From assembly GCF_030013595.1 (NCBI RefSeq), contig NZ_CP122768.1: a stretch of 64,000 nucleotides of DNA; one strand, 5' to 3'. Of this stretch, positions 18,001 to 21,000 are shown in pieces; position 1 is the first letter of the stretch; each line of letters starts with the position of its first letter. Made by a program: the position numbers. The DNA is from Escherichia coli. Lineage in GTDB: Bacteria > Pseudomonadota > Gammaproteobacteria > Enterobacterales > Enterobacteriaceae.

Positions 18001-21000
18001 GGAAGTAACAACGCCGACAGAAGAAGAACAGCTCGCCGGAATGGTCCGTGAAGTTATTGATGCGGCCTGCAAGCCAGCCCTGGAAAAACTGGAAGAAATA
18101 TCCGGGCGCTGGCTATGAATCGTGGGATTGTCCCTGCAGCAGGAAACAATGATCAGAACGTTAAGTTGGAAATTGTTCGGAACGCTGGTGCCGATTACTT
18201 CGCGCAACTAATTGGTGCTCAACGGTTCCTGGGATGATTTAAATACACGCGCTTTCCGGCGCATTAATACAGTCTGAGGGGAAGTGTCATGTTTATGAGC
18301 AAGGCAGAATATGCCAAACACAAAGGCGTAAGCCGCCAGACAGTTTACGACTGGATCGAGAAAGGCGAAGTGGTCATGTCCGGTAAAAAAATCGATGTGG
18401 AAGCGACAGAGCAGCGGAACAGCCCACCAGCACAGGGAAAAGATACCGTTTCTGAAATGTGGCCAGAGAGAACGCTGGAAATGACGTGGGGCGAGTTCTG
18501 GAAAGCAGTTAAGGCCAGAGACGGTAAAATCCCTGCACCAGTAACGGACGATGACATACAGCAGCGTGTGCAGGATGCAGCCGGGGAACTATGCTGTGAA
18601 GTGCAATTTCTTGATGATGGTGCTATCTGCCTTGAGGATTATGCTGGGCAATATTACTTTGAGCAGTATGATTTTCGGGAAAATGCCAGGCTGGCAATTC
18701 GTATGCTGCGTTGTGAGCTCTGCTATGTTGCAGGTGATTGTCCCGATGAGCTGGATAACTGGAGTGAAGCCGGACTAAACGCCCTGGCTGAGTGGGAAAA
18801 ATCATCCCATTAATGACCGTAAAATTCGCGAAAAGTGTCAAGTCAGGCCGTCTGCCGGGTTGACACTTTACACTCTGAACGCGAAAAAGTGTCAACCTCG
18901 CTGTAAGCCCCGCCATTACTGGCCTTTCGCCAGATTTACCACGTCAAAAAGCCGAAAAAATCGCGAAAAGTGTCAAGTTGCCATGCTTAGAAATGCTAAG
19001 GTTTGATAAGGTTTTTCGCGAAAAAGTGTCAAGTGTGTCAACCTGCGATGTTAAGATTTGTTAAGGTCTTAAGCCGGAAAGTGTCAACCAGCCCCTAAGA
19101 TTTCCTAAGGTGTAAATCATGACCATCACCGAAGCCGATATGCTGGAGATGATCCGCAGCATTGCCGGAATCAGACCACCAGCAGGCAAACAGGAGGCCA
19201 CGCAGCCGGACAGCGTTATCGCTGAGAACTATGCGCGTGTGGTGGCTGAGGTGATGCGCCGTGACGGTATTGAGCTTAACGGAGTGGATATGCGCGACAT
19301 ACGCACCAGGGTACTCGAGTTATTGGCCTACCGTCGCCGCGTGCAGATGTACCGGGAGAGCGAGAAAAAGACTTACCAGTGGAAGAAGCCGGAGCGGTTA
19401 CGGCGGTAACCAGTTGATAAAAAGGCTCCTCAATTTTGAGGAGGGTAGCTGGTGGCTGGCAGAATGTAAATTTACATTCTGGTGATTTAATCATCTGATT
19501 TACCCGATGGCTTACCTTACCAGGCCATAGCGGATTACCGTGCAATGCGCACCATCGCCACCAATACGCACATCAAAACGTGGCTCACGGACTTTCACAC
19601 GCTCCAGCAACTTATCACGAACCATAGCGTTTAGCGTCCTTCGTGTTGCCTCTATGTGATATCGCTGATATTCGGAACCATAGAGCAGCACTGTAACACC
19701 ACGAACATCAAAAGGTGGATCTCCAGCCTCCACCCGCACCCAATCGCGATACTCAGGTTTGTAGAGTTCAAGGATCTGTTTTTTGTGCCTGGTCATTCTC
19801 ATGCGTGCAACTCCTTATTGTGGGACAGTACTGTCATACAATAAGCTATACGGAAAATTATCAAAAGAACAGAAACCAACCATTCAGATTTAACAGGTAT
19901 CAATGGGATTATGCTTATGGTGCATGATGACAAAGCGGAAGAACTGGAAGCGAAAGGCTTATGGCGACGGGCGGCTAATCGCTGGGGTGAGTTACTGAAA
20001 CAGGCGGCAAGTGATGAAGCGCGTCAGTATGTAACGGAACGACGAACGGCATGCATCCGGAAGGCAACCATAACCCGGGAACCGGAAAGAGACCTGATTT
20101 GTGCCATAAGAACCGCCGCCACAAAAACACTAACGGATATGGGGATCGACCTGAAAAAAGAAGATCCACTGCGGGGCATTCAGCACGGACATACAAAGCA
20201 GGATAAACGCAGGAAGTAAATTTTTTCGTGTAACCAGGCAACCGACTATCTGAAAGATAGTCACACCCTACCGGGATCACGCTAGTAACGCACAACAGAG
20301 TGACCCATAGCCACCCTGTTTAACCGTTCCGGCTGGCTGGGCAGATTTTGCGCGGGTCTTATAGTCCCTCACAACAGAGTAAATAAAATTGACTTGGTTA
20401 CAGAGTAACCAAACCGGAGATTCCCGGTTTGCTCAAAAAATGACAATGAGTTACGCCCCTAACCTAAGTAATCCTTACATTCACTGCATCATCACCATGA
20501 TGGTGACGCAGCCCACCAGCAACCATAACGATTTCCGTTACAGTTGATGTGCTTTTTTGCTGGTAAGGCGTAACCCGTTGATTGTTCCAGAATCCACCAT
20601 CGGTGGAAGTTGAAAAACTCACCCGCCAGATTCTGAATGGTGAAAATCACCGGGGATCTGAATAGGCATTTCCTCTATGGAGGTCGCACCGTTTTCGGGA
20701 GAAGGTGCGATCATGTTCGTCATACCTGTTCCGTTGAAACGGAATACCCCATTCCGGCGTAGCTGGTGGACGCACAGCCACATACGAAAAATTGCATTCA
20801 GGAGGGGGGATCGAAATCCCTACCCCCCATTGCTTATGGGACCGCCCGCCCCGTCAAATTTTTACACCCGCGAAATTAAAAAAATGCGTCGCGCTGGTGG
20901 GCCTGATGCCGATATGGGGATTCCCATAACGGGTTATCCATGATCATCCACCAGCTTGATAACGGATAACAGGGGATGCGAAATCCTCAAGCGAGTGATA

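What the first reader, a model, noticed from the sequence alone, without database searches (positions are those of the whole stretch)
19426..19481. Hairpin plus 22-bp perfect palindrome between convergent island genes
CTCCTCAA-TTT-TGAGGAGG is followed by CAGAATGTAAATTTACATTCTG between the 19119 (+) and 19512 (-) genes. This is most likely a bidirectional terminator, but a 22-bp perfect palindrome is also typical of a dimeric regulator site.
Basis: seen in the sequence. Interest (0 to 1): 0.25.

Follow-up and report, generated by a model that had tools for sequence, protein, structure and literature searches.

The report
Hairpin repeats in satellite island tail
The hairpin and the 22-bp palindrome are real, but they are two members of a family of short hairpin repeats that fill the non-coding tail of E. 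coli phage-satellite islands; most likely they end or stabilise the two converging transcripts and are not a unique regulator site.

Summary
They lie in the 102-bp spacer between convergent genes near the right end of a 14-kb PICI-like satellite island (tRNA-Gly; attL 7026-7044, attR 21083-21101).

They are not a one-off. Downstream of the conserved last packaging-module gene (19119-19409, phrog_1561), related E. coli islands carry 1 to more than 10 tandem units of about 45-55 bp. Each unit has a leader matching the IHF consensus, then a hairpin whose stem differs between units through compensatory changes. Chi or a Chi-like sequence follows only some units (exact Chi in 7 of 68).

The 22-bp palindrome is the only perfectly symmetric variant of one hairpin sub-family. 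It is a single-copy element found in 49 of 5,426 complete E. coli genomes. It can occur without the neighbouring winged-helix gene, and that gene can occur without it.

Only the first hairpin has a terminator-like U-tract, and only on the minus strand.

Best reading: RNA hairpins that form or insulate the 3' ends of the convergent transcripts (confidence 0.42). A DNA-level role, an operator and neutral scars remain possible.

The island is also very Chi-rich: 18 sites in 14 kb.

The parts
19407..19419 (-). Leader of repeat unit 1. The minus strand reads TATCAACTGGTTA, which matches the IHF consensus WATCARNNNNTTR. It overlaps the TAA stop codon of the 19119-19409 gene.
   Evidence: exact consensus match; the invariant columns of the unit alignment (T5 A6 A7 T13 A15, nearly invariant C8 G14) coincide with specified IHF positions, while most of the N4 positions vary; model R1 recognises 19403-19420 as a leader (E 0.024).
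19416..19425 (-). T-run CCTTTTTATC that follows hairpin 1 on the minus strand. It overlaps the IHF-like leader.
   Evidence: terminator-like site on the minus strand, 19443..19426 plus this tail.
19426..19443 (.). Hairpin 1: CTCCTCA-ATTT-TGAGGAG, a 7-bp stem with 4 G-C pairs.
   Evidence: -10.7 kcal/mol on + and -10.0 on -. Copies at the same position in relatives have compensatory stems: CGGCTCA/TGAGCCG and CGGCTCA/TGAGCTG.
19448..19455 (+). Exact Chi octamer GCTGGTGG inside the conserved linker TAGCTGGTGGCTGG. This linker is also a mosaic breakpoint between island lineages.
   Evidence: The linker recurs in L002, L003, L005 and L023. Partial BLAST hits end or start at query 46-57.
19460..19481 (.). 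22-bp perfect palindrome CAGAATGTAAATTTACATTCTG. As RNA it forms a 9-bp stem with a 4-nt loop. It is the only fully symmetric variant of the CA.A....AAAWTT......TG hairpin sub-family.
   Evidence: Sub-family covariation. The 34-nt query spanning the palindrome is at least 99% identical in 43 of the 49 E. coli genomes that carry it.
19488..19500 (-). Second IHF-consensus match (minus strand AATCAGATGATTA), 7 bp after the palindrome. It looks like the leader of a further unit. It belongs to the 61-bp block 19445-19505 that usually travels with the 19512-19802 gene.
   Evidence: (hits covering query 46-106 at 100%).
19119..19409 (+). Conserved 96-aa gene of unknown function (phrog_1561). It is the last gene of the packaging module in many PICI-like islands, and the hairpin array always starts at its stop codon.
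   Evidence: contexts. The AF2 model has low confidence (pLDDT 62).
19512..19802 (-). 96-aa gene with no family match. It is predicted to be a winged-helix protein and converges on the hairpins.
   Evidence: no family. (pLDDT 84; four helices plus a beta-hairpin wing). (weak Foldseek matches to Fur, TFIIE, YodB and RTP winged helices, best E = 0.012).
20567..20616 (+). A complete repeat unit of the same family, in the island tail after the second PerC gene: GTAACCCGTTGATTGTTCCAGAATCCACCATCGGTGGAAG.
   Evidence: R1, 63.8 bits, E 2e-17. This row was part of the alignment used to build the model..
20220..21083 (.). Non-coding, hairpin-rich, Chi-rich tail of the island up to attR. In relatives that lack the winged-helix and second PerC genes, the equivalent tail follows the phrog_1561 gene directly.
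   Evidence: The equivalent tail in strain A34 folds with z = -8.3 (+) and -10.3 (-).

Best explanation
The two elements are the first and last hairpins of a short, two-unit version of a hairpin array. This array marks the 3' non-coding tail of a family of E. coli phage-satellite (PICI-like) islands. Their most likely role in this window is at the RNA level. Transcripts of the plus-strand packaging operon and of the convergent minus-strand winged-helix gene both run into the 102-bp spacer and fold into stable stem-loops. Hairpin 1 plus its U-run would terminate the minus-strand transcript and block antisense transcription into the operon. The palindrome hairpin would act as a weak terminator or as a barrier to 3'-exonucleases for the plus-strand transcript. 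Shown: the hairpins exist; their stems are under selection to pair (compensatory substitutions among homologous units); only hairpin 1 has a canonical U-tract, and only on the minus strand; the units are modular, vary in copy number and sit at mosaic breakpoints. Inferred: that the selected structure forms in RNA and not in DNA; that termination or stabilisation is the selected effect; and that the IHF-consensus leader and the Chi octamer are separate DNA-level features sharing the same spacer.
For: Position: the spacer lies between two stop codons of convergent ORFs. Hairpin 1 with CCTTTTTATC is scored terminator-like on the minus strand. Both hairpins are stable, about -10 to -11 kcal/mol, with z-scores of -3.0 to -6.4. 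Structure is selected. In an 18-unit sub-family, 88% of cells pair, against 26-48% when partners are slid; 7 of 9 pairs change on both sides; 0 of 500 shuffles reach the observed score. In the palindrome's own sub-family, 77% of cells pair against 15-45% slid, and 5 of 9 pairs change on both sides. More than 12 unrelated stem sequences occupy the same position behind a conserved leader. In a relative where the winged-helix gene lacks the palindrome, a different hairpin (CTACGACGTTTTCGCAG followed by TTTAATTA) occupies the same place. This points to a positional, structural role. No promoter-like site lies in the spacer.
Against: Neither hairpin has a qualifying U-tract on the plus strand, and the palindrome has none on the minus strand. 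Terminator-like sites are not enriched in the hairpin-rich tails: 1 was found against 1.2-1.3 expected. So most family members are not canonical terminators. G-T versus A-C mismatch counts (21:16; 7:4) do not identify a transcribed strand, so DNA-level hairpins are equally compatible. Hairpin 1 with its minus-strand U-run is kept in strain A34, which has no minus-strand gene to terminate. The 22-mer is perfectly symmetric through its centre and is more conserved than its flanks, which pairing alone does not require. No transcript data were available.
Confidence: 0.42

Rival explanations
1. A DNA-level architectural repeat. Each unit is an IHF-bent site next to a palindrome that can extrude as a hairpin or cruciform. 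The units sit in a Chi-dense tail, resembling a satellite-specific version of BIME/RIP elements. The array would organise, protect or recombine the satellite DNA, for example by shielding rolling-circle or packaged DNA ends from RecBCD, or by promoting module exchange between co-resident satellites.
For: The leader's invariant positions coincide with specified positions of WATCARNNNNTTR, while most of the N4 positions vary. Two such matches flank the palindrome in the same orientation. An exact Chi lies between the two hairpins. Chi is the commonest 8-mer of the island, with 18 copies, or 1.28 per kb. Tails of related islands carry 1.16 Chi per kb against 0.53 per kb in their bodies. Unit borders coincide with mosaic breakpoints. 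Many hairpins are symmetric through the loop (AAATTT, AATT, GATC), which is a DNA-level property. Mismatch types show no strand bias.
Against: The IHF consensus is weak and is not enriched in the window overall (12 matches against 8.7 expected). Homologous units inherit the motif, so its recurrence is not independent evidence. Only 7 of 68 distinct units carry an exact Chi directly after the hairpin. No binding, cruciform or RecBCD data exist. No lambda-type cos site was found near the array.
Confidence: 0.22
2. The 22-bp palindrome is the binding site of a dimeric DNA-binding protein, most obviously the adjacent predicted winged-helix protein (19512-19802).
For: It has perfect 11+11 dyad symmetry. 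The 34-nt query spanning it is at least 99% identical in 43 of 49 genomes, while its flanks vary. The block 19445-19505 usually travels with the winged-helix gene. That gene is predicted to be a winged helix with pLDDT 84, resembling Fur, YodB and RTP.
Against: It lies at the 3' ends of both genes, not at a promoter. The winged-helix gene has its own, unrelated 32-bp near-palindrome immediately upstream of its start, at 19814-19845 (I6). There is no second copy or half-site enrichment in the window. The palindrome is present without the gene in strain A34. The gene is present without the palindrome in L015/L020, and a distant homologue has only a 6-bp 3' spacer. Related copies covary instead of keeping one sequence. 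The fold matches are weak (best E = 0.012).
Confidence: 0.1
3. The units are neutral or selfish leftovers. They would be duplicated and recombined copies of the 3' end of the phrog_1561 gene plus its downstream hairpin, accumulated by exchange between co-resident satellites and serving no function for the island.
For: Many leaders repeat the gene's last codons (CGGCGGTAAC versus GGTGGTGGTAAC, GCGCGGTAAC). Copy number ranges from 1 to more than 10 among close relatives. Some copies have broken stems, such as AGCTCAAAATTGCGCT. Up to 6 related places occur per genome. Chi lies next to the junctions.
Against: Widespread compensatory change and 77-88% pairing indicate purifying selection on the structure. 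The palindrome is invariant across lineages whose flanks differ. The tail folds far better than shuffles, with z = -8 to -10.
Confidence: 0.2

Closest known systems
Rho-independent (intrinsic) terminators between convergent genes
   Same: Stable stem-loops lie just after two facing stop codons. Hairpin 1 has a 7-bp stem with 4 G-C pairs and a U-run on the minus strand.
   Different: There is no qualifying U-tract on the plus strand for either hairpin. The palindrome is A/T-rich and symmetric through its loop. The elements belong to a multi-copy family in which most members lack U-tracts.
REP/BIME elements of E. coli, especially the IHF-containing RIP/RIB type
   Same: They are short extragenic palindromes at 3' ends of operons, arranged in arrays and combined with an IHF-consensus site. 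They plausibly act as transcript stabilisers or attenuators and as protein landing pads.
   Different: They are confined to the tails of satellite islands and are not dispersed over the chromosome (one search finds no full unit outside the island). All units seen have the same orientation; REPs in BIMEs alternate. The stems differ between units, whereas REPs share one consensus. No similarity to phage records was found. Comparison with the REP consensus rests on my recollection and was not tested.
Lambda-type nut sites (conserved boxA plus phage-specific boxB hairpin)
   Same: A conserved linear leader is followed at a fixed distance by a small hairpin whose sequence varies between units.
   Different: No boxA-like sequence (CGCTCTTA) is present in the spacer, by direct reading. 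The loops are A/U-rich and not GNRA-like. The units lie at the 3' end of the operon and in arrays.
Chi-enriched, recombination-module-less lambdoid phages (PMC12315714; Bobay et al. 2013 as cited there)
   Same: A mobile element without its own recombination module carries far more Chi sites than the host average. The paper gives E. coli K-12 as 1008 sites, or one per 4.6 kb.
   Different: This is a satellite island, not a phage. Its density is higher (one per 0.78 kb, against 2.5 times the host density for phage LLS). That paper does not mention satellites.

Membership tests
Intrinsic terminator | G+C-containing stem-loop (5 or more pairs, loop of 3-8) | tested here: met
   Hairpin 1 has 7 pairs, 4 of them G-C, and a 4-nt loop. 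The palindrome has 9 pairs plus a 4-nt loop, with 3 G-C pairs.
Intrinsic terminator | U-rich tract directly 3' of the stem on the transcribed strand | tested here: inconclusive
   Met for hairpin 1 on the minus strand only (CCTTTTTATC). Not met for hairpin 1 on the plus strand (GGTAGCTG). Not met for the palindrome on either strand (plus GTGATTTAAT, 4 T in 8; minus CCAGCCAC).
Intrinsic terminator | Transcript 3' ends map to the U-tract | not testable with these tools
   No transcript data were available.
Operator of a dimeric regulator | Dyad-symmetric site | tested here: met
   Perfect 11+11 palindrome.
Operator of a dimeric regulator | Overlaps or adjoins a promoter it controls | tested here: not met
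   It lies between two stop codons, and there is no promoter-like match in 19400-19511.
Operator of a dimeric regulator | Obligate co-occurrence with the cognate regulator gene | tested here: not met
   The palindrome occurs without the winged-helix gene in L104. The gene occurs without the palindrome in L015/L020 and in L100.
Operator of a dimeric regulator | The sequence itself, not only the pairing, is conserved among related copies | tested here: inconclusive
   The 34-nt query spanning the 22-mer is at least 99% identical in 43 of 49 genomes. Related copies, however, covary at 5 of 9 pairs.
REP/BIME (RIP/RIB) | Hundreds of copies dispersed in extragenic regions of the chromosome | tested here: not met
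   Full units occur only inside the island within 64 kb. The palindrome is present in 49 of 5,426 genomes, mostly once per genome.
REP/BIME (RIP/RIB) | Shared REP consensus sequence | not tested
   No REP model or reference sequence was compared here. The stems are heterogeneous.
REP/BIME (RIP/RIB) | IHF site combined with extragenic palindromes | tested here: met
   Met at the level of consensus sequence only.
IHF binding site | Match to WATCARNNNNTTR, preceded by an A/T-rich tract | tested here: met
   19407-19419 (TATCAACTGGTTA, preceded by TTTTT) and 19488-19500. The consensus is weak: 12 matches against 8.7 expected in the whole window.
IHF binding site | IHF actually binds | not testable with these tools
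   This needs EMSA, footprinting or ChIP.
Chi site | Exact 5'-GCTGGTGG-3' | tested here: met
   19448-19455 on the plus strand.
Any Rfam RNA family | Covariance-model match | tested here: not met
   No match in 19400-19520 or in 20220-21100 at E up to 1.
Lambda-type cos site (as in EcCICFT073 cos1/cos2) | cosN GGGCGGCGACCT with an upstream cosQ | tested here: not met
   The only match with up to 2 mismatches is inside the primase gene. Only 9-nt chance-level matches to lambda cos occur in the tail. Reference sequences came from PMC6092414 Fig. S5.

The most novel reading that the evidence does not exclude
The tails of these E. coli satellite islands carry a repeat family that I did not find described in the resources searched. 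Each unit is an IHF-type leader followed by a small hairpin whose stem is free to vary. The units are arrayed in one orientation and embedded in the most Chi-dense DNA of the element. In this reading the array is a DNA-level device. It would protect the satellite's linear or rolling-circle DNA from RecBCD and serve as the preferred crossover zone through which satellites swap right-end modules. The hairpin and palindrome in this window would be one such junction.
Probability: 0.2. Interest if true: 0.6.

Novelty: new variant of a known kind. Interest (0 to 1): 0.35.

Why it matters
Taken alone, the pair is an ordinary 3'-end hairpin region. It matters because of what it belongs to. Many PICI-like satellites end in a dense, modular array of hairpins with a conserved IHF-like leader and an unusual load of Chi sites. 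If that tail acts in transcript insulation, DNA protection or module exchange, it would help explain two things: how these satellites stay mosaic, and how they survive RecBCD without recombination genes of their own. It also gives annotators a sequence signature for the right end of such islands.

Tried and rejected
- **Known RNA family.** The Rfam scan of 6500-21500 at E up to 1 gave nothing at the site.
- **Shared with helper phages.** The site has no match in 50,697 phage records. A related array gave only a 35-nt stray match inside roi.
- **Lambda or EcCICFT073-type cos.** Not present.
- **A third, outer helix pairing the leader with the Chi linker.** One search suggested it, but leader/tail complementarity is barely above permuted pairs (5.39 against 5.22, 17 of 500). 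Dropped.
- **Calling the strand from wobble pairs.** G-T to A-C counts were 7:4 and 21:16. Uninformative.
- **One covariance model for the whole family.** Model R1, built from one geometric sub-family, splits the window's first unit into leader and hairpin, because the hairpin centre shifts by 1-3 nt between sub-families. Covariation was therefore counted per sub-family.
- **Protein scan of genome contigs with the phrog_1561 profile.** It returned no confirmed locus; viral contigs was used instead.
- **Function of the phrog_1561 protein.** No Pfam, NCBIfam or PDB relative was found, and the AF2 model is unreliable (pLDDT 62), so it was not fold-searched.
- **Esr41 sRNA lead.** It is located in OI-43 and is unrelated.
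- **Known E. coli regulator sites, from memory only.** TyrR boxes (TGTAAA-N6-TTTACA) have the wrong spacing. LexA (CTGT-N8-ACAG) and CRP do not fit. None of these was tested with tools.

Full report
**1. The observation**

The sequence is as described.
- CTCCTCAATTTTGAGGAG occupies 19426-19443. This gives a 7-bp stem and a 4-nt loop.
- The perfect palindrome CAGAATGTAAATTTACATTCTG occupies 19460-19481 (I12).
- Both lie in the 102-bp spacer between convergent ORFs 19119-19409 (+) and 19512-19802 (-).
- The 22-mer is unique in the window even at 3 mismatches.
- A perfect palindrome this long is expected about 0.02 times per 64 kb.
- Each hairpin folds at about -10 to -11 kcal/mol on either strand, well below shuffles. 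So does the whole spacer.

**2. Context**

The window is E. coli DNA, 99.7% identical to strain RM9088 over 1.5 kb. The site lies in a 14-kb island inserted at tRNA-Gly(CCC). The tRNA is at 6970-7043, and the 19-bp direct repeats are at 7026-7044 and 21083-21101.

The island has the make-up of a PICI/P4-like phage satellite:
- an integrase and the int-alpA RNA motif;
- AntA/B, Icd-like and DUF4222 genes;
- a DUF927 primase;
- ProQ/FinO and two PerC genes;
- fragments of a protease-capsid fusion;
- an HTH protein resembling a small terminase subunit.

The plus-strand gene beside the site belongs to phrog_1561. This is a very common enterobacterial family of unknown function, with 953 clusters. 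It closes the packaging module in several otherwise different satellite types.

The minus-strand gene has no family match. It is predicted to be a winged-helix protein at pLDDT 84, and its structural matches are weak.

**3. The elements belong to a repeat family**

Short BLAST queries split the spacer into two blocks that occur independently. One block is the gene end plus hairpin 1. The other is the palindrome plus its flank. The breakpoint lies in the linker TAGCTGGTGGCTGG, which contains an exact Chi octamer.

I read the DNA downstream of phrog_1561 homologues in 5 E. coli genomes and about 55 viral-contig loci. This showed tandem arrays of 1 to more than 10 units of about 45-55 bp. Each unit has:
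- a conserved leader, YTAAC-N4-YTGA(T)W followed by an A/T-rich stretch;
- about 23-27 nt further on, a small hairpin, often with a second outer stem;
- in some units, GCTGGTGG or a near-Chi sequence after the hairpin.

The first leader overlaps the gene's TAA stop codon. At least a dozen unrelated stem sequences occupy the same position. Examples are CTCCTCA/TGAGGAG, CGGCTCA/TGAGCCG, GCGCA/TGCGC, CCCCC/GGGGG, CAGCC/GGCTG and TTCGCC/GGCGAA.

The window has three traces of this family:
- its first unit, at 19403-19444;
- the palindrome, which is preceded by a full leader in one relative (L035);
- a complete unit at 20567-20616 in the tail after the second PerC gene.

In strain A34 the palindrome is the fourth hairpin of such an array, and the winged-helix gene is absent.

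**4. Selection acts on pairing**

- In one geometric sub-family of 18 units, 88% of cells pair, against 26-48% when partners are slid. Seven of nine pairs change on both sides. No shuffle out of 500 reaches the observed score.
- The palindrome's own sub-family has the frame CA.A....AAAWTT......TG. There, 77% of cells pair against 15-45% slid, and 5 of 9 pairs show double changes. An example is TGTAAA/TTTACA versus TGCAAA/TTTGCA versus CGCAAA/TTTGCG.
- The window's copy is the only variant symmetric over all 11 pairs. It is invariant across lineages whose flanks differ.
- A 951-nt tail of this kind folds with z = -8.3 and -10.3 on the two strands.
- Mismatch types do not reveal which strand, or whether RNA or DNA, is the folded species.

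**5. What it most likely does**

Only hairpin 1 has a terminator-type tail, on the minus strand. It therefore fits termination of the winged-helix gene's transcript and a block to antisense transcription into the operon.

The palindrome is followed on the plus strand by GTGATTTAAT, which narrowly misses the scan's criterion. A relative has a different hairpin with a TTTAATTA tail at the same place.

My best-supported reading is that these are RNA 3'-end hairpins for the two converging transcripts. I hold it at about 0.4 for three reasons:
- canonical terminators are not enriched in these tails;
- hairpin 1 with its U-run persists where no minus-strand gene exists;
- no transcript data exist.

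**6. Rival readings**

*DNA-level role.* The invariant leader positions are among those specified by the IHF consensus WATCARNNNNTTR, and most of the N4 positions vary. Two matches in the same orientation flank the palindrome. Chi lies between the hairpins, and the tails are the most Chi-dense part of these elements. This resembles the IHF-containing BIMEs of E. coli. It suggests a role in DNA bending, RecBCD protection or module exchange. However, the consensus is weak and nothing was tested biochemically.

*Operator.* This reading is weakened by location, single copy number, covariation among related copies, and the lack of obligate linkage to the winged-helix gene. That gene also has its own unrelated near-palindrome at its 5' end, at 19814-19845.

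*Neutral scars.* This fits the copy-number variation and the leaders that repeat the gene's last codons. It is hard to reconcile with the pairing statistics.

**7. Comparison with what is known, and novelty**

- No Rfam family matches.
- No phage record shares these sequences.
- The lambda-type cos site described for EcCICFT073 is absent.
- Two full-text searches on satellites with Chi/RecBCD and with IHF/palindromes turned up no description of these repeats. This is a limited search and does not show that none exists.
- Chi enrichment is documented for lambdoid phages that lack recombination modules (PMC12315714). That paper does not mention satellites.

I therefore class the finding as a new variant of a known kind: extragenic hairpin or terminator-type repeats, here specific to a satellite. 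The pair itself is ordinary. The family it reveals is moderately interesting.

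Noticed in passing
window 7433-20955 (island), against the rest of the window: Chi (GCTGGTGG) is extremely enriched in the island. 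It has 18 exact sites in 14.1 kb (8 plus, 10 minus), making Chi the commonest 8-mer of the island. The other 50 kb of the window has 2. Related satellite loci average 0.68 per kb, and their tails 1.16 per kb. E. coli K-12 has one per 4.6 kb (PMC12315714).
   Followed up: partly
window 20893-20955: Two Chi sites face each other across 47 bp: GCTGGTGG at 20893 and CCACCAGC at 20948. They flank GCCTGATGCCGATATGGGGATTCCCATAACGGGTTATCCATGATCAT, about 130 bp inside attR. The same arrangement is seen in L028 and, partly, in L075. A double-strand cut between them would leave a correctly oriented Chi at both new ends, so this is a candidate packaging or cleavage site.
   Followed up: no
window 18829-19090: Seven copies of AAAGTGTCAA (one of them inverted) and three TAAGRTTTNNTAAGGT repeats fill the 305-bp gap between the HTH/terminase-small-subunit-like gene (18289-18813) and the phrog_1561 gene. 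They resemble the GAAAGTGTC motifs in the cosB regions printed for phage phi4 and EcCICFT073 cos2 (PMC6092414 Fig. S5). They may be terminase or Rpp binding repeats.
   Followed up: no
window 19814-19845: A 32-bp near-palindrome, CTTATTGTGGGACAGTACTGTCATACAATAAG (88% complementary), lies directly upstream of the ribosome-binding site of the winged-helix gene and faces the second PerC gene. It is a better operator candidate for that protein than the 22-bp palindrome.
   Followed up: no
window 15106-15300: Three copies of AAAAAGTGAGGAGCAAAA at 83-85-bp spacing lie downstream of the DUF927 primase gene. They look like replication-origin iterons.
   Followed up: no
window 9363-9486: Two pairs of tandem repeats built around the palindromic core CCCTNAGGG lie upstream of the AntA/B-like gene. 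One pair is the 33-bp TTACCATCACCCTTAGGGTAGATTTCCTCCCGA. The other is the 17-bp TACCCTGAGGGTGATTT at 22-bp spacing. They are possibly regulator sites.
   Followed up: no
window 8467-8534: A match to the Rfam int-alpA RNA motif (45.5 bits, gathering score 35.8) lies just after the integrase gene. This supports the P4/PICI-type identity of the island.
   Followed up: no
window 2031-2054: A 24-bp perfect palindrome, ATCCGGCCTGAATTCAGGCCGGAT, lies between convergent ORFs 243-2021 (+) and 2061-2540 (-), outside the island. It is G+C-rich and is probably an ordinary bidirectional terminator or a REP-like element.
   Followed up: no
window 16807-18118: Two adjacent ORFs match different parts of one PHROG family (phrog_6216, annotated elsewhere as a ClpP-like protease/major capsid fusion), and they do so in permuted order. 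ORF 16807-17400 matches profile positions 405-544. ORF 17465-18118 matches positions 115-315. The capsid module therefore looks rearranged or decayed.
   Followed up: no
window 1-7025 and 21102-64000: The DNA flanking the island has 42% G+C and only 2 Chi sites in 50 kb, far below the E. coli average. Much of the rest of the window therefore also looks horizontally acquired.
   Followed up: no
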